Part shown: piece after piece, positions 11,426 through 37,386 of the stretch
How the letters are laid out: each line of letters begins with the position of its first letter
Numbering within the stretch: the stretch's first letter is position 1
Assembly (NCBI GenBank): GCA_964633905.1
Contig: CAZWIT010000001.1
Location: forward strand, 65,535-129,534
DNA: 64,000 bases
Direction: 5' to 3'
From: an uncultured Gammaproteobacteria bacterium
Lineage (GTDB): Bacteria; Patescibacteriota; Patescibacteriia; UBA1558; GWA2-36-10
Program-made: the position numbers and the translations under genes
Notes under the pieces: model-generated
The model's input: the letters and a program-made list of their open reading frames with translations, nothing else
Told to the model about the DNA's origin: nothing
The model's database searches: none

Positions 11426-11480
11426 GTATTAATATTATCTTATATTTTATTATTATTTTTGTCAAGCTTGTTATTAATGC

Positions 11481-11515: not shown

Positions 11516-11537
11516 ATATTTAGTTCATGTCATTGGT

Positions 11538-11612
11538 GGGCGCGTCGGTTAATTGGTAAACCACTGGTCTCCAAAACCAGGACTGGGGGTTCGAGTCCCT
11601 CCGCGCCTGCCA
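11538..11612 (+). tRNA. tRNA-Trp (anticodon CCA), CCA encoded
   Basis: Acceptor GGGCGCG/CGCGCCU, D-arm GGTTAATTGGTAAAACC, anticodon stem-loop CTGGT-CTCCAAA-ACCAG, T-loop TTCGAGT, discriminator G, 3' CCA. Confidence 0.85.
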
Positions 11613-11634
11613 CCCTAAAATATGGCTCAGATCT

Positions 11635-11660
11635 AGCTCAGATTTGAGCTTTTTATTTTT
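11635..11660 (+). terminator. Intrinsic terminator after tRNA-Trp
   Basis: AGCTCA-GATT-TGAGCT followed by TTTTATTTTT. Confidence 0.6.
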
Positions 11661-11827
11661 GACAATTATTTAGAATTATGGTAATTTCATAGGCAATTTA
11701 AGGTACATTGATAATATAAAGAAAGTACCATTTTCTATACAAAAACTGATATTTTTAGCGATTTTGGAAATATAGTTTTTACTTGTTAACTTCACCACAA
11801 CTAACACAGGAAAACGGAGGTGATGAC

Positions 11828-12862: not shown

Positions 12863-12877
12863 GGGAGGTTAGTGGTC

Positions 12878-15803: not shown

Positions 15804-15833
15804 GAAGAAATAATATTATATTAATATAATAAA

Positions 15834-16532: not shown

Positions 16533-16535
16533 TTT

Positions 16536-18219: not shown

Positions 18220-18263
18220 TTGAAGATCCGCCCAGTTAAATAAATTTAAATTTTTATAATATT

Positions 18264-18521
18264 ATGTCATTCTACACTTATGTATTGTTGAGTAAAGAGG
18301 ATAATAAATTTTATATAGGTTATACTAAAAATTTAAATTTAAGATTTAAGCAACACTTAGCAGGTCAAGTAGAATCAACTAAAAATAGGAGGCCATTAAA
18401 GATAATTTATTACGAAGTATGCTTAAATCAACAAGATGCAATAAAAAGAGAAAAATATTTAAAAACTTATTTAGGTAAATTATTTATATATAAGAGGCTT
18501 AAATCTTATTTAACGGGGTAA
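18264..18521 (+). CDS. GIY-YIG nuclease-domain small protein (UPF0213-like)
   Basis: FYTYVLLS…KFYIGYTKNLNLRFKQH GIY-YIG motif. Confidence 0.7.
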   Translation: MSFYTYVLLSKEDNKFYIGYTKNLNLRFKQHLAGQVESTKNRRPLKIIYYEVCLNQQDAIKREKYLKTYLGKLFIYKRLKSYLTG

Positions 18522-18523
18522 AT

Positions 18524-19096
18524 ATGAAAATATATTTTTACAGTCCACAAGCAAGTAGCGAGGCTAGTTTAGTGAGTAATTATTTAAAGCAGGCAGGTGT
18601 TTCATTACTTAGTAATTTAGCGCCGGTTTTGAAAAAAAACAAAGATAATAGCGAAGGCGCGTTGAAAGTAGATGCTTTGTTGATTTTAGCTAAAAATTTA
18701 GATACACAAGCAGCCTATCTATTGGCTTTAGTTTTGGCCCAAAATCGTCCAGTTTTATGTTTGTTGCCCAAAGGATCTAAATTAGATAGCACTTTGGAAA
18801 ACCTGAATCAACAAGCCAATTTTGCTAAAAAATTGCAAATTAGCTTTTATCAAGACAGCGATTTAAAACAACAAGTTATTGCCTGGTTGCAAACTTTAGA
18901 TCAGGGTAAATTGCGCAATTTATTTAATATTAAATATACTTTGCGTTTGTCAGGAAAAATTTCTGATTATTTAAATTGGAAAGCAAGTGATGCTAATATG
19001 TCAGGAGCAGATTGGTTGCGGCAGTTGATCCAAGATAATATGGATAACGACACTGCTTATCAAACAGTTTTAAAAAATAAATATAAGCTTAATTAA
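18524..19096 (+). CDS. Hypothetical protein, possibly nucleoside 2-deoxyribosyltransferase-like fold
   Basis: N-terminal KIYFYSP… and VDALLILAKN…NRPVLCLL resemble the NDT/DUF4406 pattern. This is a weak call. Confidence 0.35.
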   Translation: MKIYFYSPQASSEASLVSNYLKQAGVSLLSNLAPVLKKNKDNSEGALKVDALLILAKNLDTQAAYLLALVLAQNRPVLCLLPKGSKLDSTLENLNQQANFAKKLQISFYQDSDLKQQVIAWLQTLDQGKLRNLFNIKYTLRLSGKISDYLNWKASDANMSGADWLRQLIQDNMDNDTAYQTVLKNKYKLN

Positions 19097-19099
19097 ATT

Positions 19100-19918
19100 A
19101 TGATGGAAAATCAGCATCCGGTTAAGAATTTTTATGATTTGGATTATCAAGTTTCACTAAAGGCTAAACCTTTTTTTATCAAAGCCAAGGAAAATAATAA
19201 TACTTTAATTATTTTAGTGCATGGTTTTTCTAGTTCGCCTTATGGTTTGCATAAGCTAGCTGATAATTTGGCCAACTTAGGTTGGGACGTAGAAGCGATA
19301 TTATTAAAGGGTCATGGCGGCAGCTTTGAAGCTTTGAGGGATAGTAACAGTTTGCAGTGGTATCATTCTTTAGAACAGGTCTATTTTAAATATGCTAATA
19401 TTTATGAAAATATTTTTATAATTGGTGATTCTTTTGGGGCTAACATGTGTATGCAGTTAGCTTATCATCATCCTCGTATCAAGGGTATTGTAGCGATTAA
19501 TCCAGCTATTTTTATTAATAAAGAGCGCTATATTCGTTTAGCATTGCCACTGGCACGAATATTTATGAAGCGCTATAAAAAAAATTGGCATCAAGTTGCG
19601 GATTTAAAAAATGTTCGCGAAGCTGGTCGCCATGTTTATTTGCCAATTAAAAGCATTGTTCAGTTTTATCATTTTATTGACCATTTTACTAAAAAGACAG
19701 TAGCTCAAATATCAGTGCCGATTTTGATTATTCATTCTCGGCAAGACTCTGTTTCTAGTCCGCGTAGTTCGCAATGGATTTATGATAATTGGGCCAATGC
19801 TGATCGGCAATTATTTATTTTACAAAAAAGCAAACATGGTTTTGGCATGATTAATTCCAGTCGGCATGATTTTATTATGAATAAGATTGATAATTTTATT
19901 AGTAGGCGTTGTGTTTAA
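19100..19918 (+). CDS. Alpha/beta-hydrolase (esterase/lipase)
   Basis: LIILVHGF, nucleophile elbow GDSFG. Confidence 0.75.
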   Translation: MMENQHPVKNFYDLDYQVSLKAKPFFIKAKENNNTLIILVHGFSSSPYGLHKLADNLANLGWDVEAILLKGHGGSFEALRDSNSLQWYHSLEQVYFKYANIYENIFIIGDSFGANMCMQLAYHHPRIKGIVAINPAIFINKERYIRLALPLARIFMKRYKKNWHQVADLKNVREAGRHVYLPIKSIVQFYHFIDHFTKKTVAQISVPILIIHSRQDSVSSPRSSQWIYDNWANADRQLFILQKSKHGFGMINSSRHDFIMNKIDNFISRRCV

Positions 19919-19921
19919 ATT

Positions 19922-20227
19922 ATGTTAGCTAAAAAATTTCAACGTCATATTGAGGATTTTATTTGTGAGCATTGTGGTATTAAAGTACAAGGAAATGGCT
20001 ATACCAATCATTGTCCCAAGTGTTTATGGAGCAAGCATGTAGATATTAATCCTGGAGATAGAGCTTCGGCTTGTCAGGCCTTGATGAAGCCTATTGATTT
20101 AGAATCAAAAGGTGATGGACAAGTTATTACTTACCATTGCCTTAAGTGTGGTTTTGAAAGAAAAAATAAGGTAGCAGAGACTGATGATTTAGAAGAATTA
20201 ATCAAACTAAGTACTATTAAATTATAA
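19922..20227 (+). CDS. RNHCP-domain zinc-ribbon protein
   Basis: CEHCG…YTNHCPKCL…HCLKCG: paired CxxC motifs and an NHCP signature. Confidence 0.55.
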   Translation: MLAKKFQRHIEDFICEHCGIKVQGNGYTNHCPKCLWSKHVDINPGDRASACQALMKPIDLESKGDGQVITYHCLKCGFERKNKVAETDDLEELIKLSTIKL

Positions 20228-20319
20228 TAAAGAATTGCCCCGAAGTATAAAACAGCGGGGCAATTTTACTATTGTGGTAAAAAGTAAAATTATGGTAAAA
20301 TAATATTGAAAAAATAGAC

Positions 20320-22032
20320 ATGTCACAGACAATTACGGATGTTTTTAAGGAAAGCGTGGAAAAGTATGGTAAGCGAAATGCTTTGGCTTTTTTAAGTAAC
20401 AAAAAATACCAAACTATTACTTATCAAGCTTTAGATAATTATCGTTTGCAGATAGCTAAATGGTGGCAAGAATTGGGCCTACAAAAAGGGGAAAAAATAG
20501 CTATTATGTTACCTAATTCTCCAGAGTGGATTATTGCTGATTTAGCTGCTGCTAGTCTTGGTCTAGTAATTGTGCCAGTGCATAGTACTTTTAGTGGTAG
20601 TTATTTAGCCAATTTAGTTAAACATGCTCAGGCTGATTATTTATTGATTGATGGTACTAACTTTGCTAAACATAAAGATACAGTTAAAAATTTGTCTTTT
20701 AAAAAAATATTTTTAGTGAATAAAGAAGGTGAATCGCAGCATTTGTCCTGGCCAGTTTTAGACGCTGGGCTTTGTCCAGAAATCAAAAAGCCTAATATTA
20801 AGGCAAACGATTTACATATTATTATTTATACTTCTGGCACTACCGGTGATCCCAAAGGTGTGATGTTATCGCATCATAATATAGTGACTGATGCCTTGTC
20901 TGCTATTCGGCGCGTGCCGATCAATTGTCAGGATAGATTTTTTTCTTTTTTGCCTTTATCACATGCTTTTGAGCGTATGGCTGGCTACTATTGTCCGATT
21001 TTTGTTGGTGCTAGTATTTATTTTGCTCAAAGTCCTAAAACCATGGTTGCTGATATTAAGTTAGCCAAGCCTACGGTTTTGCCTAGCGTGCCTAGAATTT
21101 TTGAAAAGATTTACGATAAGATTTACGATAAGATTAGGAGTTCAGGGCAAATGCGCAAACAATTGTTTTATCAGGCAATTGATTTAGCGAGAGCTAGACG
21201 ACATGGTCGTTTGCCTTGGTCACAATTAATAAAATACAAAATTTTAAATATTTTGGTTTTAAAAAAGTTGCGTCAAATTTTTGGTGGTAGTTTACGTTTA
21301 GCAATTTCTGGCGGATCTTCATTAAATCCTATGATTGGTAAATTTTTTGAAAATCTTGGCATTAAAAATATCGAAGGTTATGGTTTGACTGAAACCAGTC
21401 CGATTGCGGCTATTAATAAATTGGATTTTTATAAGTACGGCACGGTTGGTCCAGCTATAGATTGTAATCGCATTAAGATTGCGGAGGATAAAGAGATATT
21501 AATAAAAGGCGATAATGTGATGTTAGGGTATTATAATAACCCTGAGGCTACAGCTGATGTGATGGTAGATGACGGCTGGTTTAAAACTGGTGACCTTGGT
21601 TTTATAGACAATGATGGTTTTCTGACCATTATTGGTAGGGCTAAAGATATGATAGTACTGTCTACTGGTAAAAAAGTATTTCCAGAACCAATTGAAAATG
21701 TTTTAAATGCTAATAAATATATTAGCCAAAGCATGGTTTATGGTAGTAACAGCAAACATATTTCTGCCTTGATTGTGCCGGATAAAGAGGAATTATCCAA
21801 GTGGTGCCAAAAGTCTGATTTGCAGTTTGCTTGGCCTGAAATTTTAGAAAAAACAGAGTTAAAAGAGTTTTATCAACAGCAAATAACTAAAGCTTTAGAG
21901 CACTTGGCAAATATTGAACAAATTAATCATTTTCAATTGTTAAATGAAGAATTTAGTCAGGAGAATGGCATGTTGACATTAACATTGAAATTGAGACGGC
22001 CTCATATTATGTCCAAATATATAATTAAGTGA
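20320..22032 (+). CDS. Long-chain-fatty-acid--CoA ligase (AMP-binding family)
   Basis: YTSGTTGDPKGV AMP-binding signature. 570 aa. Confidence 0.9.
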   Translation: MSQTITDVFKESVEKYGKRNALAFLSNKKYQTITYQALDNYRLQIAKWWQELGLQKGEKIAIMLPNSPEWIIADLAAASLGLVIVPVHSTFSGSYLANLVKHAQADYLLIDGTNFAKHKDTVKNLSFKKIFLVNKEGESQHLSWPVLDAGLCPEIKKPNIKANDLHIIIYTSGTTGDPKGVMLSHHNIVTDALSAIRRVPINCQDRFFSFLPLSHAFERMAGYYCPIFVGASIYFAQSPKTMVADIKLAKPTVLPSVPRIFEKIYDKIYDKIRSSGQMRKQLFYQAIDLARARRHGRLPWSQLIKYKILNILVLKKLRQIFGGSLRLAISGGSSLNPMIGKFFENLGIKNIEGYGLTETSPIAAINKLDFYKYGTVGPAIDCNRIKIAEDKEILIKGDNVMLGYYNNPEATADVMVDDGWFKTGDLGFIDNDGFLTIIGRAKDMIVLSTGKKVFPEPIENVLNANKYISQSMVYGSNSKHISALIVPDKEELSKWCQKSDLQFAWPEILEKTELKEFYQQQITKALEHLANIEQINHFQLLNEEFSQENGMLTLTLKLRRPHIMSKYIIK

Positions 22033-26287: not shown

Positions 26288-27460
26288 ATGCCTCAAAAGA
26301 AAAGCGATTTTAATTATTTATTTTTAGTATCGATCTTTTTATTTATTTTTTTGCCGCAACTTTCTTTGGCTCTTGGGTCAAAGCAAAAAATAATACAGGA
26401 CAGTACCAAATACGTAGATAAATATTTTAGTAGTAATTTAAAAACAGGCGATCAGGATTTTATCTATTTAGGCGAACAAAAAATAGCCACCGTAGATGCT
26501 CAAGGCAATGTTTTTTACAATTTAGATGACCATTTGGCTTCGCCGACTTTGATAACTGATTCAGTTGGTCAAATTGTCTCTAGTCTTGATTATCAGCCTT
26601 TTGGCAAATTAAATTCGGCTGTTTCTAGTACTAATGATCATTATCAATTTAGTGACAAAGAGTTTGATGCTGAAAATAATTGGCAGTATTTTGGCGCTCG
26701 TTATTATGATAATATTTTGGGTCGTTTTAGCTCGCTTGACCCCGTTTATCTACAAAATGTTGGGCAATATTTGGCTGATCCGCAGCAGCTCAATAGCTAT
26801 GCTTATGCTCGTAATAATCCAATTAAGTTAATAGACAAGTCTGGAGAGAAAGTTTCGGAATACCAGCCATATAAGGCTAAAAATAATTTTTATAATGTAG
26901 GCGAAGCTTTTGGCGTATATCGTGGCTTAACATTAAAAAGCGGGGGAGAATTTACCGGCAGTGATAAGCACGAGTATCAATGTGTTGCTCTGGCTAAGGA
27001 CTTTGTCAAGCAACAATTTGATGTTACTATTGGCAGGATAGGGAGCGGTAGTAATTTTGGTAAGCAAGAAATACTTAATAGTTTTAAAAATGCAGGTAAT
27101 TTTGAGGTTTATAAAAATGGTGCTACAGTTATGCCGCAAGAAAATGATATTATTTCTTGGCAGGGCGGTGGCTATGGTCATGTAGGTGTTATTGCGGAAA
27201 TAAGTTTTGATCCAAAATCAGGCAGTGGTTATGTGTATACGCTAGAACAAAATGCTAGTAAAAATAGCGCTTTGTTTGCCCAAACACTGCAAAGAAATTA
27301 CAATAAAGCTGGTCAGGCTACTTATACTATTGGTGACCGATGGCAGAGTTATCAGGTGCAGGCCTGGGCTCGCTATGGAAACCAAAGCCAATTACCAGCT
27401 GAAAATTATTCACCAATTTTATATACGCCAGCTCCTAATTTATCAAAATATTATGAATAA
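26288..27460 (+). CDS. Secreted mini-RHS protein: signal peptide + terminal YD repeats/RHS core tip + C-terminal CHAP (amidase/peptidase) domain
   Basis: Signal peptide MPQKKSDFNYLFLVSIFLFIFLPQLSLALG. RHS core tail YFGARYYDNILGRFSSLDPV…NSYAYARNNPIKLIDKSGE. CHAP-like Cys (HEYQCVALAKDF) and His (GHVGVIAEI). Confidence 0.7.
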   Translation: MPQKKSDFNYLFLVSIFLFIFLPQLSLALGSKQKIIQDSTKYVDKYFSSNLKTGDQDFIYLGEQKIATVDAQGNVFYNLDDHLASPTLITDSVGQIVSSLDYQPFGKLNSAVSSTNDHYQFSDKEFDAENNWQYFGARYYDNILGRFSSLDPVYLQNVGQYLADPQQLNSYAYARNNPIKLIDKSGEKVSEYQPYKAKNNFYNVGEAFGVYRGLTLKSGGEFTGSDKHEYQCVALAKDFVKQQFDVTIGRIGSGSNFGKQEILNSFKNAGNFEVYKNGATVMPQENDIISWQGGGYGHVGVIAEISFDPKSGSGYVYTLEQNASKNSALFAQTLQRNYNKAGQATYTIGDRWQSYQVQAWARYGNQSQLPAENYSPILYTPAPNLSKYYE

Positions 27461-28151
27461 AAAATTATTATTTTTTTTAAGCCTAGTTTTTTTGTTAGCG
27501 ATTACTGTGGCTTTGTTAGTATATTATTTAAATAAATCAACGAATTCACATTTAACAAATCAAGTAAATAATATTTCTTGGTTAACATATAAAAATGAAT
27601 CTTTAGGTTTTCAGATTAATTATCCACAACAGATGGAGTTGTGGAATGGTAATTGTATCTTAGAAGATGGTCAGGCAAAAATTACCAATGGCTTAGTACC
27701 TACCAAAATGTTCGTTGATACTGCGGCGGTTTGGATTTCCTATGAATATTTTTATGAAAATGTTAATGGAGCTTGCAAAAGAATTGATAACTCAATAGCT
27801 CTCCTAAAGGAACAAAGTGCTTGGAAAATTGTTATAGCTGATAATATTAATAATGATAAAGATCTAGATATTTTTATTAAAAAATTCTATAAAAATTTTG
27901 GTAATTGTCAATTAGAAGAAAAGCGTCCTGCTATACAAAATGGCGTTTATGATGTTTTTACAGCTTATGATGGTAAGGACTTAGGAGAGTCAGAATGTTT
28001 TATTAATACTTGGTCAGTTATTAAATATTATCCAGCTAATAAAAAAGTGATTGCTTGGACAATTGGGCAAGAGCCATACTTTTGGTCTGACAATAGGGGA
28101 GCGATTACATTTGATCAAGCTATGGCTGATAGTTTTATGTTTTTACAATAA
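27453..28151 (+). CDS. Candidate immunity protein for the CHAP toxin (N-terminal TM/signal anchor)
   Basis: ATG 27453 overlaps the upstream stop (ATGAATAA). MNKKLLFFLSLVFLLAITVALLVYY… The track ORF 27252 is a 5' extension inside the upstream gene. Confidence 0.45.
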   Translation: MNKKLLFFLSLVFLLAITVALLVYYLNKSTNSHLTNQVNNISWLTYKNESLGFQINYPQQMELWNGNCILEDGQAKITNGLVPTKMFVDTAAVWISYEYFYENVNGACKRIDNSIALLKEQSAWKIVIADNINNDKDLDIFIKKFYKNFGNCQLEEKRPAIQNGVYDVFTAYDGKDLGESECFINTWSVIKYYPANKKVIAWTIGQEPYFWSDNRGAITFDQAMADSFMFLQ

Positions 28152-28314
28152 TATTCCAAATTTAAAAATCAGAAAAACTAAAAGCCTCTAGTATTAATTA
28201 GGGGCTTTTAATATTTGACAAGTTTTTTGCTTAAGCGTATATTTAATGTAGCTAGTATAGACGGCTTAAATTCTTGCGACGGCTATACAAATTGTCCGCT
28301 AAATTTAAATATTT

Positions 28315-28512
28315 ATGTTAAGAATAGCAAAAAGTAATTTATTATCAAAAATATATTGGCCTTTTGTCTTTATTTTGATAATTTTAATTTCTTTATTATT
28401 TTTAATATTTGGCTGGATTTTTTATTTAGCTGATTGTTTATTTTTTCAAAAATCTTTAGAGCGTAAAATCAAGAAAAGCGTTTTGGAGGATAAAATTATT
28501 TTAAACAATTAA
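28315..28512 (+). CDS. Small hydrophobic protein (65 aa)
   Basis: Single long TM segment. Its 3' end is part of the 64-bp direct repeat DR1. Confidence 0.35.
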   Translation: MLRIAKSNLLSKIYWPFVFILIILISLLFLIFGWIFYLADCLFFQKSLERKIKKSVLEDKIILNN

Positions 28513-28537
28513 TCAAAATTATATGTCGAGGTTAAAA
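28474..28537 (+). repeat. Direct repeat DR1 (64 bp)
   Basis: aaaagcgttttggaggataaaattattttaaacaattaatcaaaattatatgtcgaggttaaaa, 62/64 identical to 31140..31203. Confidence 0.9.
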
Positions 28538-28551
28538 TTATTTAATACCTT

Positions 28552-31068
28552 ATGTCTTTAAATAAAGAATCATCATTTAGTTTTGATAACGTTTTTAATG
28601 AAAAAACGGAGTTTGTGCAATATACTCTGGATACTTATAACCGTATTTATAATTTACCTACAATCAAATACGAGGGGGATGTTTCGGATGAATTATTTGC
28701 TTATGTGCAAAAAAGGAATTTTTTTGTACTTTTAGTTATCTATGATGGGAGTGGTCGTATATTTCTGGAAAGAAATTTACAAGAACAACTTTACTGGTCT
28801 TTGCCTGGTGGTAGCATTTTAAAAAATGAAGATATTCATACGGCGGTTAGAAGAATTTCTGAGAGAATACAAACAGATGGTAATAAAATGATTTTAGGTG
28901 AGATTGAACCAATTGCTTTTATCAAGAATAAATTTAATTGTCAGGATAATAGTTTTGTGCATCATGGTATAGCCTTTACTGCTAGGATTAGAAATTTTAA
29001 AGAGATTAATTGTGACGAATCTTTGGGGGCATTTATTCATCCAACTGATCAAGAGATTGATAAAATTAATAGGTATGCTAATCAGCAGGTGGTAAAATTA
29101 GTCTTGAGCAGATTAAAGTTTTTTGATACGCCTTTTCCAGAAATAGAGGTTGCTACTAATGAAAATTGTGCTTGGCGATATTTTATTCATAATAAGTTCG
29201 TTAAAAAATTTATTTTAACTTCAAGAATCAAGAAAAGATCAGAATTTTTAGATAAAATAAAAAATCTAATCGGTGAAGCTGGTAGTTTCATAGATGTCTC
29301 TTGTGGTGATAGTGATATTATTAATAGTGTTAATAATGAAAAGTTTAATTATTTGGTGGCTAATGATATTAGTTGGAGTCAAATAAAGTCTATTCAGAGT
29401 AACGATAAGAAAATTATTTTTACTAATCATAATGCGACTTATTTACCATTTAAGGAAAATTCTTTTGCTGTAGCATATTGCGCTAATACCTTGCACCACA
29501 TGTCTTCTAAAAAAGAGTTGTTAAAATTATTGGATAGTATTTTTAGAGTTGCTGAAAAATTGATTATTGTAGAGATAGAAAAACCAAATAATTCAGGCCT
29601 TATTCCATATTTTTTACATAAATATTGGTATGCCGGTTTTTTAAAAGATGTTGGTGGCGCTTATCTATCACGTCAAGATTTTTATAGTATCATTTCTTCA
29701 CATTTTGAAAAAAATGCTAGTATAAAATTTGATAATTTTTCCAATATTCAAGGAAATTATTTGATAGCCGAAATATCAAAAAAGAAAAAATCAGACTTAT
29801 CAACTCGAAAAATTATTGAGGTAGAGGCTAAATATATTTGTAAGGATATTTTAGCATTAATTAAAGAGTGCCAAAAAAAAGGTTTTATTTTACAAAAAGA
29901 CTTGTTGGAAAAAGATGAATATTTTACTGATATTAATGGGCAATTTGTTAAAGATAGAACTTGTTTAAGATTGCGTAGTAATAATGATAAACTGGAGTTG
30001 ACTTTTAAGGGCAAGTCCCAAGTGCCATCTAATTTTTATTTGAAAGAAGAGCATAATATTATTTTAGACATTAGACAATATAATGATTATCAAGAGATGA
30101 TTAATTCTTTAGGTTATCATAATTATGTTGAGGTCAAGAAAAAGCGTCGGGTATACCTTAAACAAGAAGTAGACTTTGCTATAGCTGTAGTTTTAGATGA
30201 GTTGCAAAATATTGGTTCATTTGTAGAATTTGAGATTAGTTATATTCGCGGCCAAAATTCACATTCAGAGGATGATTTTGTCAATATTTTTGATAAAATA
30301 GTAGATGAATTTAAGGTTTGTGGTTTAACGCCAGCGGACGAACCTTATCGGGATTATGTCGCGAAATTTTATGCTAATAATATTTTAAATAAAGATAAAT
30401 TAAGCACTATTTTATTTGATTTTGATGGCACAATCGCTCCATCTGAACAGATTTTTTTTGATGCTTACAAAAAAACAGCGACAGAGTTTTTTGGGCAACA
30501 AATCTCAATAGATGATTATCGTAAATTTGAGTTGGATCAAGAAGGCTGGTTATTTGATCATCTTTCAGCTGGTTCCATAAATGGCAATAGGATTTTTGGC
30601 AAAGAAACATTTATGGAGGCAGTTTATCTTGAATACGAAAATTTATTAGTTAAAATATTTAATAATAATAGTTTATTTTTAAATTTACATGGCATAGAGA
30701 TGCTAAAAAAGAAAGGCTATAAATTAGGGTTGGTTTCTTCCTCTAAAAGAAAATATATTGATTTAATATTAAATAATCTAAATCAAAATGGATTATTTGA
30801 TGTTATTATAGCCAGAGAAGATGTTGATAATTTGAAGCCTACACCTGATCCTTATTTGTTAGCTATGGATAAATTAGCAGTTAAAGCAGATGAGTGTCTG
30901 GCTGTAGAAGATTCTAACAAAGGTATTATGGCAGCAACCCAAGCTAAAATTAATTGTGTATCAGTTCGTAAAGATTCTATTTATGAAGAATATAATAATA
31001 GTAAATACGGTGATAGATCATTTGCTAGCGTTTTGCAAATTTGTTTGATTTTGTTATATGCAGATTAA
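28552..31068 (+). CDS. Multidomain protein: Nudix-like + class I SAM-methyltransferase-like + CYTH (triphosphate tunnel) + HAD hydrolase
   Basis: Nudix-like LPGGSILKNEDIHTAVRRISERI. CYTH start IEVEAKYICK. C-terminal HAD motifs ILFDFDGTIA … LGLVSSS … VEDSNKG. Confidence 0.7.
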   Translation: MSLNKESSFSFDNVFNEKTEFVQYTLDTYNRIYNLPTIKYEGDVSDELFAYVQKRNFFVLLVIYDGSGRIFLERNLQEQLYWSLPGGSILKNEDIHTAVRRISERIQTDGNKMILGEIEPIAFIKNKFNCQDNSFVHHGIAFTARIRNFKEINCDESLGAFIHPTDQEIDKINRYANQQVVKLVLSRLKFFDTPFPEIEVATNENCAWRYFIHNKFVKKFILTSRIKKRSEFLDKIKNLIGEAGSFIDVSCGDSDIINSVNNEKFNYLVANDISWSQIKSIQSNDKKIIFTNHNATYLPFKENSFAVAYCANTLHHMSSKKELLKLLDSIFRVAEKLIIVEIEKPNNSGLIPYFLHKYWYAGFLKDVGGAYLSRQDFYSIISSHFEKNASIKFDNFSNIQGNYLIAEISKKKKSDLSTRKIIEVEAKYICKDILALIKECQKKGFILQKDLLEKDEYFTDINGQFVKDRTCLRLRSNNDKLELTFKGKSQVPSNFYLKEEHNIILDIRQYNDYQEMINSLGYHNYVEVKKKRRVYLKQEVDFAIAVVLDELQNIGSFVEFEISYIRGQNSHSEDDFVNIFDKIVDEFKVCGLTPADEPYRDYVAKFYANNILNKDKLSTILFDFDGTIAPSEQIFFDAYKKTATEFFGQQISIDDYRKFELDQEGWLFDHLSAGSINGNRIFGKETFMEAVYLEYENLLVKIFNNNSLFLNLHGIEMLKKKGYKLGLVSSSKRKYIDLILNNLNQNGLFDVIIAREDVDNLKPTPDPYLLAMDKLAVKADECLAVEDSNKGIMAATQAKINCVSVRKDSIYEEYNNSKYGDRSFASVLQICLILLYAD

Positions 31069-31139
31069 TTATTGATAAGTACATAAAAGTAGTCATTTTT
31101 TAAAAAATATATATTTATTAAAGTAACTTTATAAATAAT

Positions 31140-31203
31140 AAAAGCGTTTTGGAGGATAAAATTATTTTAAACAATTAATCAAAATTATATGCTGAGGTTA
31201 AAA
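31140..31203 (+). repeat. Direct repeat DR2 (64 bp), contains the start codon of the giant RHS gene
   Basis: Same 64-mer as DR1 with tc→ct at the ATG(c/t)(t/c)GAGG position. ATG 31189 of the RHS ORF lies inside it. Confidence 0.9.
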
Positions 31204-34200
31204 GCAAAATTTAAAATGAAAATAAAAATTTTTAGTTTGGCTATTTTATTGCTGCTCAATAATTTTGCTTATTTACCAAAAGTAAGCGCGCAGGCAAAAA
31301 TAGTTGAGCCAGTAATGCCAGCGGATTTAAATATAGACGAATCAGTTTTGTCTTTGCCAATACCAGAAGAAGTAAAGCCAATTTTGATTGATCCTGATTT
31401 AAAACCGGATTTATTGCCAATAGAAGAGCCTGGTGATATTTTGGCAATAGAGCCAAAGCCAGGCAATCTAGAAATAGAGACTTTGACCGAAGAAGATCCT
31501 GAACCAAATTTTGATAAAGGCGAAAACAAAATTTCTTTAGAAAAATTAAATTTAAAAACCGAAGGCAATTCTGGGGCTTTGGTTTATGATTTTCCTTTAG
31601 CTATTCCTCAAGGCAGAAATGGTTTGCAGCCCAATCTTGCCTTAAGCTACAATAATCAAGATACAGAAAAATTAAATCAGTTTGGCTATGGGTGGTCTTT
31701 AAATCTTCCCAGTATCAAAAGAATTAATAAAAAAGGTTCGGATAATCTCTATGCTGAATCTTTTTTTAGTTCTTCCTTATCGGGTGAATTAAAATTAGTA
31801 AATTCCCTTGATGGTCTGCATGGTGAATATCAAGCTGAAGTAGAATCTGGTGATTTTATTAAATATGAATTAACTGAAAGTAATTATTGGCAAGCAACTG
31901 ATAAAACAGGTAATATCTATACTTTTGGTGTTGCTACCAGTTCTCGTCAAGATAATCCTAGTGATCAAGCTCAGATTTACCAGTGGTTTTTAAGTGAAAC
32001 TCGGGACACTAATGATAATTATATAAAATATGAATATTTTAAGGATGCTGGTCAGATTTATCCTGATACCATAACTTATACTGGTAATGATACAACAGAT
32101 GGTATTTTTACTATTGAGTTTTTAAGAGAAACAAGAGCTGATAATTTAGACTCTAATAACACTGGTTTTAATGTTATTAATAATTATCGTATTTCGGAAA
32201 TAGATATTAGTATTAATGATAATTGGGTTAAAAAATATGAACTGGATTATATTACTAGTAATAACGGTCAAAGCTCATATTTAGATACTATTTTAGAAAG
32301 TGCTAAAGATGAAAGTAATAATATAGTTAGTTTACCAATAAATGACTTTGATTATCAGGAAACTGTTAAAAGTTTTACCTTAGAAGAAAATTATGAGTTT
32401 CCTTTAATTTTTCATTATGATTACGGTAACACTGAGAAAGACCAGGGTGTAAGATTGGCTGATGTTAACGGCGATGGATATATAGACGCAGTCCATGCTT
32501 ATTATCGTGAATATTATCAGGAAGAGCAGCACTACGTTCTTGATTATAAAGATGTATATATAAATGACGGCAATGGTCATTGGAATTTAGATGAAACTTA
32601 CAATTTCCCAGAGTATTTTTTATTTTATGATGGTGATCAGGGTGTTAGATTAGATGATGTTAATGGCGATGGCCTGGCTGATGTGGTCAGGGCTTATTAT
32701 CGTGAGTATGACCAAGAGGGACAACATTATATTAATGACTATAAATATGTTTACATTAATAATGGTCATGGTTGGGATTTAGATGAAAACTATGAACTAC
32801 CAACTTATTTTATTTCATATTACAAAGAAAGAGGCGTGAGATTAACGGATGTAAATGGGGATGGCTTAGTAGATTTTGCTAAATCTTACTATGTTTGGAA
32901 CGGTAGTACAGAGTATATATATAAAGAGGTCTATATAAATGACGGCAATGGTAATTGGAATTTAGATGAAAGTTATGATATTCCTGTATATTTTAATTAT
33001 ATGAGCTGGGGTACAGACAGCAATCAAGGTGTGGAATTAGCTGATGTAAACGGAGATAATTTAGTCGATATTTTAAGATCATCCCATATTGTAAATAGTA
33101 ATGAATATATTATTAAAGAGGTCTATATAAATGACGGCAATGGTAATTGGAATTTAGATGAAAGTTATGATATACCAGTGTATTTCTACTATATTAGTTG
33201 GAGTACTGTAGTTGATGAGGGTGTAAAGTTAATGGATATCAATAAAGATAATTTAGTTGATTTTGTAAAATCTTATGGAGTATCTAGTAACGAATATCAA
33301 GAAGTATATATTAACAATGGTCATGGTTGGGATTTAGATGAAAGTTATACTTTACCAATAGATTTTTCTAGAAGTGGAGATAGAGGTGTACGAATAGGAG
33401 ATGCTGATGGAGATGATATAGGGGGTTTGATTCAGGGTTTGCGTTGGTGGAATTCACAAGGGTCTCATGATGAACAAAAGGTTTATCTTAACAACGCCAA
33501 AATCGAATCTCTCTCTACTATTAAAAACAGTCAAGGCTCAGAAATAAATATTAGTTATCAGCCATCTACACAATATAAAGATCAAAGTGGCAATCTACTT
33601 AATCCTAACCTGCCTTTTGTAGTGCAAACAGTTAAACAAATCACTATTAATGATGGTTTAGATAATGAATCAACTATCGATTATCAATATAGTGATGGTC
33701 AGTATTATTATAATAATCCCGAGCAAAGAAAAGTAGCTGGCTTTGGTCAAGTAGAAAAAATTATTGATGATACTAAAACCATTACTTATTATCACCAAGG
33801 CAATGAATCAAATTCTAGCCAAGGCGAATATCAAGATAGCTATTATAAAATCGGCAAACCATATCGTAGTGAAACTTATGATAATAATAGTAATAATTTG
33901 CTTTCTCAAGAATTATATAAATGGGAAGAAACTGATTTAGGTCATAATAATAAATTTGTTTATAACACTTTAAAATCTAGCACTGACTTTACTGGAGCTA
34001 CTAAGTCAACAGCTATCCAATATAATTATGATTTAACTTCAGGAAATTTGTTAACGGAAAATAATCTGGGTGAAGTAGTTGTTAATACTGATACTGGTGA
34101 AATCACTAGTCAACTAACTGGTGATGAAAAAGATACAGCTTATGCTTATGCTGAAAATATAGAGGATCATATTTTAGCAGCACCAATGACTAAAGTAATT

Positions 34201-37200
34201 AGTGATAACTCGGATAGTAAAGAGCAAAATCTTTATTATGATAACTCTTTGGTTTTAGGACAAGTAGAAAAAGTAAATTTAACCAAAGAGGATTATCTTG
34301 AGCAAGATGTTGAAGTTAATAGAAATTTTAACAATCTTGGCTTAGTAACTGAAGAAATATCGCCTGAAAATGCTACTACCACTATTGCTTACGATAGTAA
34401 TAATTTATATCCAGCTTCTTCTACTAATGCTTTAAACCAAGTTAGTTATACAGAGTATAATTTACTCAATGGTCAAGTAGCAACTACAACTGCTTCTAAT
34501 GGACTGACAACAGTTAATAAATATGATGCTTTTGGTAGGTTAAAAGAAGTATGGATTTCTAATCCTGATAGTCCTTCAAATTTAATTAAAAAACAAGAAA
34601 TCAGCTATCAGGATATTACTTTACCAAGATATAAAGAAAGCAAAGATTATTTTGATAATAATCTCTACACTACTACGCGCGAGTATTACGACGGTTTAGA
34701 CAGAGTTATTCAGAAAAAAAGCAGCTTAGCTAGCACAAATGAGTTTACTACCCTTGATATTAGTTATGATTCACAAGGCAGGGTAGCTAGACAATCTTTG
34801 CCGTATATTACTAGTAGTATTGTCTACAGTAGTGCTGATTTATCAAAGCCTGCCAAAACTTATACCTATGACGCTTTAGGCAGAGTTTTGACAGAAGTAA
34901 CACCAGTGGGGGCTACTAACTATGATTATAATGGTTTTACTACTCAAATTACTGATGCTAATAATAATCGTAAGGATTTGACTAAAGATGCCTACGGTAA
35001 TTTAGTGCAAGTCAAAGAATACAATGGCGCCAGTGTCTATACTACAAATTACGAATATACTTTGACTAATAAGCTGAAAAAGATTACTGACTCGTCTGGT
35101 AATATTAGAAACTTTAGCTATGACGCTCTAGATAATCTAGCTTGGCAAGATATGGTGCACAAAACATCGGTTAGCAATCCGGCTAAGATTCAATACACCT
35201 ATGATAAAAATGGCAACGTCTTAACGGAAACATCTTTTAAGAATGATGCTATATCTTACACTTACGATGATATTAATCGACCCTTATTAGAAAAATTAAG
35301 TGGCAATACTAAAATTAGTTATACTTATGATCAACATGGCGATATTGGCCAGCTAAGTTTTGCCGATTATGGCAATGGCAATTCTAAGGCCTATGATTAT
35401 GATATTTTGGGTAGAGTCAAAACAGCTACTACCACCATTGCCAATGAAGTATTTGTCATGGAGTTTGACTATAATTTAGCTGGCGCTTTAAAGATAATAA
35501 AGTATCCAGACAATAAGACAGTTAGCTACAACTTTAATGCTATTGGTCAAGTAAGCGGTGTGAATTTAGCTACTTCTACTTTGGCTACAAATATCACTTA
35601 TAATCAAAACGGCCAGATGACGCATGTAGAAAGGGCTAGTGGCGTGACTACTGATTATACTTATGATCCAGCGCAAGCTTTTCGCTTAACTAGAATTTTA
35701 TCTACCCAAGCTACTTCCACTTTGCAAGATCTTAATTATACTTATGATAACGTAGGTAATATTTTGACTTTAGTTGATAATGCTAATATGGATCTTAAAA
35801 AATCAGCTACTTATGCCTATGATGATTTAAATAGGCTACTCACAGCCACGGTCAGTTATCCTAATCATCCTGATAAAAATTATACGCAAAGCTTCACTTA
35901 CGACAGTATTGGTAATATGACCAGTAATTCTGACTTAGGCACTTTAAACTATAACAATGGTCAGCCACATCAATTATCTAGCTATGGTTCTAGAAACTTC
36001 CAATATGATGCAGCTGGTAATATGACTAGAAACGGCGGTATTAATAAATTCTCTTGGGACTATCGTAATCGTTTAAGTCTGTCTAACGACATTGTCTCAA
36101 ATAATAATACTTATTACCAATATGATCATAATAACCAAAGATTCTTAAAATATACTGAAGACTATGTCTTTATCCCTCCAGATATTGAAGAAACACCAAC
36201 GGTACAAGGCAGTATGATGCAGGCAGAAGGTTTGGATGGTGGTGAAGAACAGCTAGATGGAGTCGGTCATTGGGAATGGCAGAGGATAAAAGAGGATAAG
36301 TATATTGAAAATTATTTTGAAAAAAATGAGACTGATCAGACTAAAGCACATATTTATTTAAACTCTATCAAGATAGCAACTATTAATAATAATGATAATC
36401 CATATTATATTTTAGGAGATCATCTGAATTCTAGTTCAATATTAACAGATGGCTCTGGTGCTACGGCTCAATTGTCAGATTACAAGCCATTTGGTAGTAT
36501 TAACTATGATAACAAGCTCGTTGATTTGAAAAATGATTATAGTTTTACTGGACAGGAGTATGACGAAGAGTCTAGTTTGCAGTATTATGGGGCTCGGTAT
36601 ATGGATAATGAGATAGGGAGGTTTACTAGTGTAGATCCAGTAATAATTCAAGTAGAGTCTTTATCTAAAATATTAGCAGATCCTCAATCCCTAAATAGCT
36701 ATGTTTATAGCAGAAATAACCCAATAATATTAGTAGATAAAGATGGTAATTTTTGGCAAATATTTACAGCCGGAGTTGGGGCAGTAGGTGGTGCTATTTG
36801 GGGCGCCAAAGATAGCTATAACATGGTTAAGAATACTTTTCAGGGTAATTTTGACGCCGCTGCATATTATAGTGAAAGATCATTAAATAAATTAGGTACA
36901 GGTTTTATGGTAGGTCTTGGAGTTGGTGAGTTGGCCAAGCCATTTGTACAGACTTATGCGCCTAATACTTATAATGCTATAAATGGCAGTAAGTCTTTGC
37001 CTGTGTTAACTGATAAAGTTGGCGATCCTGGTCAAGGGTATTATCCTGGAAGAAATACGGGATTTAAATTAGATTCACAAGGGAGAATCTTAGACGGTAA
37101 AAATTTAGCTAATGGTAATTATAAAGTAGTAGTAAAAAATAACAATGTTATATTTGGCAAGGAAAAAAGCATTCCGGGCGGTGGTGATGACTTTAGTCAT

Positions 37201-37386
37201 GCAGATTTAGTAAATGGAGGAGATGTTAATTTTGCTGGTACTATGAGATTTAAAAATGGTCAACTACAATCATATAACGAATGGTCTGGGCATTATCAAG
37301 GAAAAGGTAATCAATGGGTGTTAGAGCAACAATTTGAAAAGTCCGGAATAAATTATAGAAATAAATTTGTAGATGTTTCGTATTAA
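31189..37386 (+). CDS. Giant RHS/YD-repeat polymorphic toxin (SpvB/TcB-like N-domain + FG-GAP propeller + YD repeats + RHS core + variable C-terminal toxin domain)
   Basis: Signal peptide. SpvB-like GNSGALVYDFPLAIPQGRNGLQPNLALSYNNQ…GYGWSL. Repeated DVNGDG FG-GAP blades. Many YD repeats. RHS core QYYGARYMDNEIGRFTSVDPV…NSYVYSRNNPIILVDKDGN. ~270-aa C-terminal domain of unknown type. Confidence 0.9.
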   Translation: MLRLKAKFKMKIKIFSLAILLLLNNFAYLPKVSAQAKIVEPVMPADLNIDESVLSLPIPEEVKPILIDPDLKPDLLPIEEPGDILAIEPKPGNLEIETLTEEDPEPNFDKGENKISLEKLNLKTEGNSGALVYDFPLAIPQGRNGLQPNLALSYNNQDTEKLNQFGYGWSLNLPSIKRINKKGSDNLYAESFFSSSLSGELKLVNSLDGLHGEYQAEVESGDFIKYELTESNYWQATDKTGNIYTFGVATSSRQDNPSDQAQIYQWFLSETRDTNDNYIKYEYFKDAGQIYPDTITYTGNDTTDGIFTIEFLRETRADNLDSNNTGFNVINNYRISEIDISINDNWVKKYELDYITSNNGQSSYLDTILESAKDESNNIVSLPINDFDYQETVKSFTLEENYEFPLIFHYDYGNTEKDQGVRLADVNGDGYIDAVHAYYREYYQEEQHYVLDYKDVYINDGNGHWNLDETYNFPEYFLFYDGDQGVRLDDVNGDGLADVVRAYYREYDQEGQHYINDYKYVYINNGHGWDLDENYELPTYFISYYKERGVRLTDVNGDGLVDFAKSYYVWNGSTEYIYKEVYINDGNGNWNLDESYDIPVYFNYMSWGTDSNQGVELADVNGDNLVDILRSSHIVNSNEYIIKEVYINDGNGNWNLDESYDIPVYFYYISWSTVVDEGVKLMDINKDNLVDFVKSYGVSSNEYQEVYINNGHGWDLDESYTLPIDFSRSGDRGVRIGDADGDDIGGLIQGLRWWNSQGSHDEQKVYLNNAKIESLSTIKNSQGSEINISYQPSTQYKDQSGNLLNPNLPFVVQTVKQITINDGLDNESTIDYQYSDGQYYYNNPEQRKVAGFGQVEKIIDDTKTITYYHQGNESNSSQGEYQDSYYKIGKPYRSETYDNNSNNLLSQELYKWEETDLGHNNKFVYNTLKSSTDFTGATKSTAIQYNYDLTSGNLLTENNLGEVVVNTDTGEITSQLTGDEKDTAYAYAENIEDHILAAPMTKVISDNSDSKEQNLYYDNSLVLGQVEKVNLTKEDYLEQDVEVNRNFNNLGLVTEEISPENATTTIAYDSNNLYPASSTNALNQVSYTEYNLLNGQVATTTASNGLTTVNKYDAFGRLKEVWISNPDSPSNLIKKQEISYQDITLPRYKESKDYFDNNLYTTTREYYDGLDRVIQKKSSLASTNEFTTLDISYDSQGRVARQSLPYITSSIVYSSADLSKPAKTYTYDALGRVLTEVTPVGATNYDYNGFTTQITDANNNRKDLTKDAYGNLVQVKEYNGASVYTTNYEYTLTNKLKKITDSSGNIRNFSYDALDNLAWQDMVHKTSVSNPAKIQYTYDKNGNVLTETSFKNDAISYTYDDINRPLLEKLSGNTKISYTYDQHGDIGQLSFADYGNGNSKAYDYDILGRVKTATTTIANEVFVMEFDYNLAGALKIIKYPDNKTVSYNFNAIGQVSGVNLATSTLATNITYNQNGQMTHVERASGVTTDYTYDPAQAFRLTRILSTQATSTLQDLNYTYDNVGNILTLVDNANMDLKKSATYAYDDLNRLLTATVSYPNHPDKNYTQSFTYDSIGNMTSNSDLGTLNYNNGQPHQLSSYGSRNFQYDAAGNMTRNGGINKFSWDYRNRLSLSNDIVSNNNTYYQYDHNNQRFLKYTEDYVFIPPDIEETPTVQGSMMQAEGLDGGEEQLDGVGHWEWQRIKEDKYIENYFEKNETDQTKAHIYLNSIKIATINNNDNPYYILGDHLNSSSILTDGSGATAQLSDYKPFGSINYDNKLVDLKNDYSFTGQEYDEESSLQYYGARYMDNEIGRFTSVDPVIIQVESLSKILADPQSLNSYVYSRNNPIILVDKDGNFWQIFTAGVGAVGGAIWGAKDSYNMVKNTFQGNFDAAAYYSERSLNKLGTGFMVGLGVGELAKPFVQTYAPNTYNAINGSKSLPVLTDKVGDPGQGYYPGRNTGFKLDSQGRILDGKNLANGNYKVVVKNNNVIFGKEKSIPGGGDDFSHADLVNGGDVNFAGTMRFKNGQLQSYNEWSGHYQGKGNQWVLEQQFEKSGINYRNKFVDVSY
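32923..33171 (+). repeat. Intragenic duplication inside the RHS propeller region
   Basis: A 57-nt identical stretch, aaagaggtctatataaatgacggcaatggtaattggaatttagatgaaagttatgata, occurs at 32923-32979 and 33115-33171, 192 nt (one blade) apart. Confidence 0.85.

What the first reader, a model, noticed from the sequence alone, without database searches (positions are those of the whole stretch)
28474..31203. 64-bp direct repeats (62/64 identical) bracketing the 838-aa Nudix-MTase-CYTH-HAD gene between the two toxin loci
DR1 (28474-28537) is the 3' end of a small membrane ORF plus its downstream leader. DR2 (31140-31203) repeats it and supplies the actual ATG of the giant RHS gene. The only differences are two bases at the ATG-proximal position. 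So the 2.6-kb multidomain gene sits in a duplicated-leader 'slot', as if inserted by recombination into the small-ORF/RHS junction. Alternatively, the leader containing GGAGGATAAAATTATTTTAAACAATTAATCAAAATTAT-ATG may be a reused expression module for toxin-locus genes.
Basis: seen in the sequence. Interest (0 to 1): 0.55.

Follow-up and report, generated by a model that had tools for sequence, protein, structure and literature searches.

The report
Insertion scar repeats around one gene
Two near-identical 64-base repeats really do flank a 2.5-kb enzyme gene, and they most likely mark where that gene was recombined into the junction between a small gene and a giant toxin gene; this is a fairly ordinary kind of genome scar, though homologues of this gene carry the same kind of scar in three unrelated genomes.

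Summary
The repeat is real. Window 28474-28537 and 31140-31203 match at 62 of 64 bases: 52 exact, a TC/CT swap, then 10 exact. The borders are sharp. There is no third copy in the 64 kb and none in three public collections. An independent Logan assembly breaks exactly at both copies.

DR1 holds the last 12 codons and stop of a 65-aa membrane ORF plus 25 nt. DR2 repeats this, but its ORF tail is dead (stops lie upstream). DR2 carries the first ATG of the RHS ORF (31189). An in-frame ATG at 31216, outside the repeat, is equally plausible as the true start.

The repeat shows no promoter-like site, RNA structure or Rfam match. This genome barely uses Shine-Dalgarno sites, so the "expression module" reading lacks support.

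The Nudix-MTase-CYTH-HAD gene belongs to a conserved family that often sits next to tmk in Patescibacteria. In three other unrelated loci it is also flanked by 56-125-nt copies of the upstream gene's 3' end. That makes 4 of 20 loci against about 1% background. One locus has three serial relics and is identical in nine assemblies.

Best reading (0.6): a junction duplication left when the gene was recombined in, with no transposase or integrase. It is now an excisable 2,666-bp unit. No close relative exists, so an empty site could not be tested.

The parts
28215..28243 (+). Best sigma-70-like site of the region (TTGACA-17-TATATT), upstream of the small ORF. It is a possible promoter for a small ORF / G / RHS transcript.
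   Evidence: 11 of 12 consensus match. The total number of such sites in the region is no higher than in shuffles, so this is a consensus match only.
28315..28512 (+). 65-aa ORF with one long hydrophobic segment. Its last 12 codons and stop lie inside DR1.
   Evidence: No Pfam, NCBIfam or PADLOC hit. No tblastn homologue next to any other G or RHS locus. Whether it is a real gene is unproven.
28474..28537 (+). DR1: the tail of the small ORF (KSVLEDKIILNN*), 10 nt, then ATG TCG AGG TTA AAA.
28523..28561 (+). 12-codon mini-ORF (MSRLKLFNTLCL*) that starts at the repeat's ATG and overlaps the start of G. Read as a dead copy of the first five RHS codons, if RHS starts at 31189.
Evidence: Read directly from the sequence.
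28552..31068 (+). G: the 838-aa Nudix(weak)-SAM methyltransferase-CYTH-HAD protein. It is the only gene between the repeats.
   Evidence: Pfam, NCBIfam, PDB sequence hits to HAD-IA phosphatases and a triphosphate tunnel metalloenzyme. The family is about 830-850 aa at 41-52% identity. The start agrees with homologues.
31069..31139 (+). 71-nt AT-rich spacer between the stop of G and DR2. It belongs to the inserted unit.
   Evidence: No terminator-like site and no plus-strand promoter-like site.
31140..31203 (+). DR2: the same 64 nt. Its small-ORF tail is untranslatable because TAA TAA lies just upstream. It contains ATG 31189, which is in frame with RHS.
31189..37386 (+). Giant RHS/YD-repeat toxin ORF (2065 aa, or 2056 aa from ATG 31216) with a signal peptide, an SpvB N-terminal domain, FG-GAP repeats and RHS repeats.
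26288..28151 (+). Upstream toxin locus: a 390-aa signal peptide + Rhs-associated core + CHAP protein (26288-27460), overlapped by 8 nt by a 232-aa lipoprotein-like ORF (27453-28151, candidate immunity).
   Evidence: The immunity role is inferred from position only.

Best explanation
The 64-bp pair is a junction duplication. It is a scar left when a single-gene unit (14 nt + G + 71 nt, 2,666 bp repeat-to-repeat) was recombined into a formerly tight small-ORF/RHS junction.

The ancestral junction would have read: ...KSVLEDKIILNN* - 10 nt - ATG CTG AGG TTA AAA GCA... (RHS). After insertion the whole junction is present on both sides. The left copy keeps the small ORF intact and carries a dead RHS head. 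The right copy keeps the RHS leader and start intact and carries a dead small-ORF tail.

No transposase, integrase, terminal inverted repeats or attC-like hairpin is involved. The event is therefore most likely host recombination. Two routes are plausible:
- one-sided homology-anchored (HFIR-type) insertion or displacement;
- single-crossover integration of a circle that shared the junction sequence.

Survival would be limited to events that left both neighbours intact. As it stands, the two repeats allow precise excision or tandem amplification of G by repeat-repeat recombination.

Shown: the repeat, its anatomy, its uniqueness, and the recurrence of the same anatomy around G homologues elsewhere. 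Inferred: the direction of the event (G as the newcomer), the recombination pathway, and present-day excision.
For: (1) Anatomy. Only one functional copy of each flanking gene's end exists. The other copy is a relic. Deleting one repeat plus G leaves both ORFs intact.

(2) Recurrence. The same bracket occurs around G homologues with unrelated neighbours.
- L092: 56 nt at 95%, the last 18 codons of a histidine kinase.
- L103: 125 nt at 98%, the last 13 codons of a PHP-domain gene plus its terminator hairpin.
- L025: 119 nt at 84%, the intergenic region after PPDK.
The downstream genes are a radical SAM gene, YfhO and NusB. That is 4 of 20 distinct loci with usable flanks, against 15 of about 1050 other ORFs in the same loci. 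Fisher p=3e-4, or 3e-3 without the discovery case.

(3) L092 has three serial copies of the kinase tail, separating G and then a radical SAM cassette. The arrangement is the same in nine independent assemblies. Such brackets are therefore real and accrete at one site.

(4) The L103 bracket is retained in a relative at 95% nucleotide identity (L111).

(5) G adjoins tmk in at least 5 Patescibacteria lineages, including its closest homologues. There is no tmk in this window, so G's position here is probably derived.

(6) No mobile-element machinery was found. G is the only ORF in the unit, the insert ends have no TIRs, the checked ORFs include no integrase, and the repeat sequences differ in every genome.

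(7) Known analogues exist: sequential displacement in T6SS/Rhs arrays (PMC5361080) and the recombinase-less H47 island with imperfect flanking repeats (PMC5426353).
Against: - No empty-site relative and no G-less strain could be examined. DnaB, G and the CHAP toxin are singletons at 90% identity among 15 billion proteins, and the repeat is absent from all three collections.
- G's codon usage and GC3 are typical of the host. Any transfer was therefore old, came from a close relative, or was an intragenomic move. Yet the repeats are still 97% identical, which needs recency, gene conversion or selection.
- The small ORF is not shown to be a real gene.
- 16 of 20 G loci have no bracket.
- The recombination pathway is not demonstrated. 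Microhomology at the left border is only fuzzy.
- Only 64 kb of a 211-kb contig was visible.
Confidence: 0.6

Rival explanations
1. Duplicated cis-acting leader kept by selection. The 64-mer gives G and RHS the same upstream control region (promoter, translation-coupling context or mRNA-stability element). This could hold whether or not it arose by insertion.
For: - Both genes start 12-14 nt after the repeat ends, counting RHS from ATG 31216.
- The copies are 97% identical although half of each is non-coding relic.
- In L103 and L025 the duplicated piece includes a terminator hairpin and promoter-like sequence that could serve both genes.
Against: - No promoter-like site lies in either copy.
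- GGAGG is coding sequence of the small ORF and sits 33 nt from the ATG. The genome's starts are preceded by A/T runs, not SD sites.
- The repeat folds no better than shuffles (z +1.05 to +1.19) and has no Rfam match.
- No third copy sits upstream of any other gene in the window, including the other toxin gene.
- In L092 the duplicated piece is pure kinase coding sequence.
Confidence: 0.15
2. Local secondary copy unrelated to acquisition of G. G was always downstream of the small ORF. Later a 64-bp patch of that junction was copied in front of RHS by ectopic gene conversion, template switching, or when the RHS block was brought in.
For: - G's codon usage is host-like.
- RHS loci are known recombination hotspots (own knowledge; PMC5361080 discusses Rhs arrays).
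- RHS homologues elsewhere have no small ORF upstream.
Against: - This does not explain why the copies lie exactly at the two ends of G.
- It does not explain why three unrelated G loci without any RHS show the same bracket.
- The small ORF/G pairing is not seen in any other G locus either.
Confidence: 0.12
3. Assembly artefact. G resides only on a 2.67-kb circle, or in another strain, and was threaded into the chromosome through a shared 52-mer.
For: A k=31 graph cannot tell chromosome plus circle from the integrated form. The Logan unitig ends inside both copies.
Against: - The two copies differ at 2 bases and then agree again for 10, which is unlike a collapsed or duplicated k-mer path.
- The exact stretch is only 52 nt, shorter than the reads and than the usual final k of metagenome assemblers (own knowledge).
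- The unitig break itself shows that the repeat has two contexts in the reads.
- Analogous brackets in L092 have exact runs of 23 nt or less and recur in nine assemblies.
Confidence: 0.05
4. One member pair of a dispersed genomic repeat family (REP- or MITE-like) that happens to flank G.
For: Only 64 kb of the genome was available, and AT-rich intergenic repeats occur in small genomes.
Against: - Exactly two copies in 64 kb at any sensitivity.
- No palindromic structure.
- 39 of the 64 nt are the coding end of an ORF.
- Zero exact matches to the core in genome, metagenome and viral collections.
Confidence: 0.05

Closest known systems
Sequential displacement scars in Rhs / T6SS effector-immunity arrays (homology-facilitated illegitimate recombination model; Kirchberger et al. 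2017, PMC5361080)
   Same: New DNA enters next to a conserved anchor. The old 3' end is pushed downstream and kept as a relic copy, and repeated events give serial relics. This is seen in L092. The window shows one such relic, and it lies in an RHS neighbourhood.
   Different: Here the anchor is not the toxin gene's conserved core but whatever gene lies upstream (a small ORF, a kinase, a PHP-domain gene, PPDK). The cargo is a metabolic-type enzyme gene, not a toxin tip with its immunity gene. The relics are only 56-125 nt. The pathway was not demonstrated here.
Recombinase-less islands flanked by imperfect direct repeats, e.g. the microcin H47 genomic island of E. coli (Azpiroz & Lavina 2017, PMC5426353)
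   Same: An element without its own recombinase is bounded by imperfect direct repeats. Excision is by host, RecA-independent repeat-repeat recombination and gives a circle plus a restored site. This is the behaviour predicted for the 2,666-bp unit.
   Different: The H47 island is 13 kb with long composite att sites, and its excision was shown experimentally. Here the unit is one gene and no excision product has been observed.
Integrase-driven islands that target the 3' end of a gene and leave partial-gene repeats, including tandem accretion (tycheposons, bioRxiv 10.1101/2020.12.28.424599; SCCmec at rlmH, own knowledge)
   Same: A complete target gene lies on one side and a partial 3' copy on the far side. 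Successive insertions at one site leave serial partial copies.
   Different: No integrase lies in or beside the unit. The repeat sequence and the target gene differ in every genome, which a site-specific enzyme would not explain.
Transposon target-site duplications
   Same: Direct repeats of target sequence lie on both sides of an insert.
   Different: Those duplications are typically 2-15 bp and of fixed length, and come with terminal inverted repeats and a transposase (own knowledge). Here the repeats are 56-125 bp and variable, with no TIRs and no transposase.

Membership tests
Transposon / IS target-site duplication | Short duplication of fixed length (typically 2-15 bp) | tested here: not met
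   64 bp here, and 56, 125 and about 119 bp in the other bracketed loci.
Transposon / IS target-site duplication | Terminal inverted repeats at the insert ends and a transposase gene | tested here: not met
   No complementarity between the insert ends in any of the four loci. No inverted pair at the borders. The only ORF in the unit is G, which has enzyme domains.
Integrase-mediated integrative element (attL/attR) | An identity block in direct orientation at both ends, with one copy completing the 3' end of the target gene and the other a partial relic | tested here: met
   DR1 completes the small ORF. DR2's tail has stops upstream. The geometry is the same in L092 and L103.
Integrase-mediated integrative element (attL/attR) | A tyrosine or serine recombinase gene in or next to the element | tested here: not met
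   None lies between the repeats. None was found among the 19 window ORFs scanned with Pfam. Not every ORF of the window was scanned.
Integrase-mediated integrative element (attL/attR) | The same att core and target in different hosts | tested here: not met
   The four brackets have unrelated sequences and unrelated target genes.
Integron gene cassette | An attC site (imperfect inverted repeats folding into a hairpin) at the cassette end, with IntI/attI nearby | tested here: not met
   The repeat and its flanks fold no better than shuffles. No integrase was found.
Homology-anchored displacement/insertion scar (HFIR-type, as proposed for Rhs/T6SS arrays) | A relic copy of the anchor gene's 3' end retained downstream of the new DNA | tested here: met
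   Window DR2; L092 and L103.
Homology-anchored displacement/insertion scar (HFIR-type, as proposed for Rhs/T6SS arrays) | Serial relics from repeated events at one anchor | tested here: inconclusive
   Three copies in L092. Only two in the window, with no third copy.
Homology-anchored displacement/insertion scar (HFIR-type, as proposed for Rhs/T6SS arrays) | Microhomology at the illegitimate junction, and a donor lineage with the anchor gene next to the cargo | not testable with these tools
   The left borders show only fuzzy extra similarity. No relative of the organism exists in the collections.
Dispersed intergenic repeat (REP/MITE-like) | Many copies per genome, usually palindromic | tested here: not met
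   Two copies in 64 kb, no hairpin, and none in public collections. The rest of the genome was not visible.
Cis-regulatory leader / riboswitch / attenuator | A conserved RNA structure or known family; or promoter and SD elements at working distance | tested here: not met
   No Rfam match with E of 1 or less in either copy. Fold z-scores are +1.05 and +1.19. No promoter-like site lies inside either copy. GGAGG is 33 nt from the ATG in a genome that hardly uses SD sites.

The most novel reading that the evidence does not exclude
The Nudix-MTase-CYTH-HAD module, whether fused or split into 2-3 ORFs, travels as a minimal recombinase-less cassette in small AT-rich genomes (Patescibacteria and gut Bacilli-like lineages). 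It would enter at the 3' end of arbitrary genes by a still-undescribed host or trans-acting mechanism that duplicates 56-125 bp of the target. The same process could stack other cassettes, such as the radical SAM/RiPP-like unit in L092, at the same site. This would be a general gene-gain route in lineages that lack classical mobile elements.
Probability: 0.1. Interest if true: 0.7.

Novelty: new member of a known kind. Interest (0 to 1): 0.38.

Why it matters
For this window, the repeat explains how an unrelated four-domain enzyme gene came to sit between two toxin loci. It also predicts a precise, testable excision and amplification unit of 2,666 bp. Loss of that unit would rejoin the small ORF to the RHS toxin gene.

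More broadly, candidate-phyla-radiation bacteria have few recognisable mobile elements. Recurrent brackets made of the upstream gene's tail around the same cargo in unrelated genomes hint that plain host recombination may be a regular way these reduced genomes gain single genes. That recombination could be one-sided homology or repeat-mediated.

The finding is not a new class of element on present evidence. The gene's own function, and its recurrent pairing with thymidylate kinase, may be the more interesting open question.

Tried and rejected
- Exact-core scans for the repeat in genome contigs (34-mer), metagenome contigs (28-mer) and viral contigs (28-mer) gave 0 hits each. Neither further genomic copies nor an empty site could be found.
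- Exact look-ups of the small ORF and the 2065-aa RHS found nothing on record.
- A search with the RHS N-terminus gave a best hit of 55% identity and no self hit. The start codon stayed unresolved and the homologues share no synteny with the window.
- Short Logan contigs carrying homologues (L160, L161) were checked for the end-overlap signature of flanking repeats. None was found.
- Terminal inverted repeats at the insert ends: none.
- RNA element: no structure and no Rfam family.
- Promoter or SD module: not supported.
- Defence-system reading of G and its neighbours: no PADLOC hit.
- Phage carriage of G: no relative in IMG/VR.
- Recent foreign origin of G from composition: rejected, because its codon usage is host-like.
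- An integrase or transposase nearby: none among the ORFs scanned.
- G-encoded mobility: rejected, because the second bracketed cassette in L092 lacks G.
Full report
**Observation**

The two 64-nt segments 28474-28537 and 31140-31203 are identical at 62 positions. The first 52 nt are exact, then TC versus CT, then 10 exact bases GAGGTTAAAA. Similarity ends abruptly on both sides.

The 52-mer, allowing 3 mismatches, occurs exactly twice in the window and never in 100 dinucleotide-preserving shuffles. Sensitive blastn-short and nhmmer --max searches find no third copy; the next best hit has E=0.24. The start-to-start spacing is 2,666 bp.

**Anatomy**

- ORF 28315-28512 encodes 65 aa with one long hydrophobic stretch. 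Its last 12 codons (KSVLEDKIILNN) and TAA lie in DR1.
- 10 nt later comes ATG TCG AGG TTA AAA, where DR1 ends.
- G, the 838-aa ORF, starts 14 nt further on at 28552. This start agrees with its homologues.
- G stops at 31068, and a 71-nt AT-rich spacer follows.
- DR2 follows the spacer. Its small-ORF tail cannot be translated because TAA TAA lies just upstream. Its ATG (31189) is the first start codon of the 2065-aa RHS ORF.
- A second in-frame ATG at 31216, 12 nt past the repeat, begins MKIKIFSLAILLLL...

RHS homologues have signal peptides with n-regions of very different lengths, and this genome has almost no Shine-Dalgarno sites. I cannot say which ATG is used.

If 31189 is the start, the repeat spans the whole ancestral junction: small-ORF tail, stop, 10 nt, and the first five RHS codons. 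DR1 then carries a dead RHS head, which opens a 12-codon mini-ORF overlapping the start of G.

**Gene content**

- G hits Methyltransf_11, CYTH and HAD_2 strongly and NUDIX weakly. NCBIfam and PDB sequence searches give only generic HAD-IA phosphatase and triphosphate-tunnel matches.
- The downstream ORF has SpvB, FG-GAP and RHS repeats.
- Upstream lie a 390-aa Rhs-core + CHAP toxin and a lipoprotein-like ORF.
- The window is chromosomal. It holds DnaB, RecR, PGK and a class I tRNA synthetase, is about 33% GC, and its best hits are to Patescibacteria.

**Is it an artefact or a dispersed repeat?**

An independent Logan assembly (SRR13355620, the same contig in 3 samples) has a 2,674-nt contig equal to window 28496-31169. 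That is a unitig reaching exactly 30 nt into each exact repeat copy, as expected for k=31 at a repeat with two contexts. This supports the junctions DR1-to-G and G-to-DR2 and shows that the repeat branches in the reads. It cannot by itself separate "integrated" from "circle plus empty site".

The two-base difference followed by ten identical bases argues against a collapsed or duplicated path. The core of the repeat has no exact match in 185,579 species genomes, the JGI metagenomes or IMG/VR.

**Is it a regulatory module?**

- No promoter-like hexamer pair falls inside either copy. The best one in the region lies upstream of the small ORF at 28215.
- No terminator-like site lies between the small ORF and RHS.
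- The repeat folds worse than its shuffles, with z of +1.05 to +1.19, and has no Rfam match.
- Of about 50 gene starts in the window, only a handful have any SD-like motif at working distance. The typical context is an A/T run.

The "reused expression module" reading therefore lacks positive support. It cannot be excluded by sequence alone.

**Comparative evidence**

G belongs to a conserved family of about 830-850 aa, at 41-52% identity to the window protein (54% best tblastn segment). It is found in Patescibacteria and, patchily, in gut Bacilli, Clostridia and Bacteroidota MAGs. It is absent from viral contigs.

I fetched 24 distinct loci (clustered at 85% nucleotide identity, plus the window), of which 20 have at least 300 nt on both sides. 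I compared 1.2 kb upstream with 1.2 kb downstream of the gene. Three further loci show a direct repeat that brackets the gene:

| Locus | Repeat | What is duplicated | Downstream gene |
|---|---|---|---|
| L092 | 56 nt, 95% | last 18 codons and stop of a histidine kinase | radical SAM |
| L103 | 125 nt, 98% | last 13 codons of a PHP-domain gene plus its terminator hairpin | YfhO |
| L025 | about 119 nt, 84% | intergenic sequence after PPDK with a terminator-like hairpin | NusB |

The flanking genes are unrelated between loci. The inserted units measure 2,599-2,949 bp. Each is G plus 10-288 nt upstream and 11-71 nt downstream, with no terminal inverted repeats.

The same test on 1,074 ORFs of at least 250 aa in all fetched loci gives 17 hits at E of 1e-8 or below, including duplicates and two G cases. 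Some of these, from their coordinates, look like tandem paralogues. Background is therefore about 1.4%, against 4 of 20 for G. Fisher p=3e-4, or 3e-3 without the discovery case.

L092 has a third, more diverged copy of the kinase tail after a radical SAM + 212-aa cassette. The order is kinase, G, relic, cassette, relic. This order and the relic after G are found in nine independent assemblies, and the third relic in the three that reach that far. L111, a relative of L103 at 95% nucleotide identity, keeps both repeats.

These brackets are therefore real, heritable, and can accrete at one site. Because the second L092 cassette lacks G, G does not encode its own mobility.

**Position of G**

In at least five Patescibacteria lineages, including the closest homologues (52%), G is directly next to thymidylate kinase. 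The window has no tmk.

A 415-aa Nudix-MTase-only homologue (L096) sits beside homologues of window genes 14418-22032. The family therefore has some loose link to this neighbourhood.

G's codon usage is among the most host-typical in the window: distance 0.082 against a median of 0.124, and GC3 of 0.206 against 0.25. It is not a recent import from a distant donor. A move within the genome or from a close relative fits better.

**Mechanism**

The simplest account has one event placing G into a tight small-ORF/RHS junction and leaving the junction on both sides. The following were each tested and not met (see the membership table):

- transposition, because the duplication is long and variable in length, with no TIRs and no transposase;
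- a site-specific integrase, because none is present and the sequences and targets differ in each genome;
- integron capture, because there is no attC-like hairpin and no IntI.

What remains is host recombination. One option is one-sided homology-anchored insertion, as proposed for the serial relics of Rhs and T6SS arrays (PMC5361080). The other is single-crossover integration of a circle sharing the junction. The recombinase-less H47 island, with imperfect flanking repeats and RecA-independent excision, is a worked precedent for later excision (PMC5426353). Tycheposons show the same "newcomer pushes the old partial copy downstream" picture, but with an integrase (bioRxiv 10.1101/2020.12.28.424599).

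Which pathway acted here is inference. I put 0.6 on "insertion/relocation scar of G".

**What could not be done**

DnaB, G and the CHAP toxin are singleton clusters at 90% identity among 15 billion proteins. The RHS N-terminus has no hit above 55%. No near relative exists in which to look for an empty site. Reads were not available, and only 64 kb of a 211-kb contig was visible.

**Verdict**

On present evidence this is a new example of a known kind of recombination scar. The modestly interesting extra is that the same enzyme gene carries such scars in several unrelated small genomes.

Noticed in passing
window 57600-59100: A patch of 61-76% GC (57600-58500), then 44-58% GC to 59100, in a 33% GC genome. 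It lies directly after tRNA-Glu and tRNA-Val. It holds a 274-aa ORF on the minus strand (57701-58525) with an Ala/Thr/Pro-rich N-terminus. That ORF has no Pfam, NCBIfam, Rfam or phage-database match. It could be very recent foreign DNA at a tRNA site or a chimeric join in the assembly.
   Followed up: partly
window 9324-14281: A block of higher GC (44-46% against about 33%) with atypical codon usage. It carries a family-3 glycosyl transferase-like gene, a class I Trp/Tyr-tRNA synthetase and a PLP-dependent decarboxylase. It may have a foreign origin.
   Followed up: no
window 5295-5373: A tRNA-like gene (Rfam 42 bits). Its anticodon stem CTCTC/GAGAG encloses an 8-nt loop, ATTACGAA, instead of 7 nt. 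ARAGORN calls a four-base anticodon 'tacg'. It lies inside ORF 5250-5876, which has atypical composition and may be spurious. It could be an Arg-ACG-like tRNA with an expanded loop or a pseudogene.
   Followed up: partly
L164 7447-8217; L165 4410-4958; L167 7505-8218; L080-L085; L094: The Nudix-MTase-CYTH-HAD gene is immediately next to thymidylate kinase in at least five Patescibacteria lineages, and overlaps it in L164 and L167. This hints at a role in nucleotide metabolism.
   Followed up: partly
L103 9998-12494; L011 100-2581; L025 7165-9673; L096 1261-2508: The four-domain protein is split exactly at domain borders in some genomes. There are two ORFs (Nudix-MTase | CYTH-HAD) in L103 and two tblastn segments in different frames in L011. 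There are three ORFs in L025. A Nudix-MTase-only form of 415 aa exists in L096 and in Clostridia and Alphaproteobacteria MAGs. It therefore behaves as a module that can be fused or unfused.
   Followed up: partly
L092 10396-12600: The second cassette bracketed by kinase-tail relics holds a radical SAM enzyme, a 212-aa ORF and, on the opposite strand, a 54-aa Cys-rich ORF (12243-12407...CVSSNCDGGWGACECNCDCSGG). It looks like a small RiPP cluster. An IS30-type transposase-like ORF lies about 2 kb further on.
   Followed up: no
L111 7498-9986: In the 95%-identical relative of L103, the gene is interrupted by about 2.5 kb of extra DNA with three ORFs (151, 97 and 347 aa), while both flanking repeats are kept.
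   Followed up: no
window 26288-28151: A compact toxin gene of 390 aa has its own signal peptide, only the Rhs-associated core tip and a CHAP amidase domain, with no RHS repeat shell. It overlaps a lipoprotein-like ORF by 8 nt.
   Followed up: no
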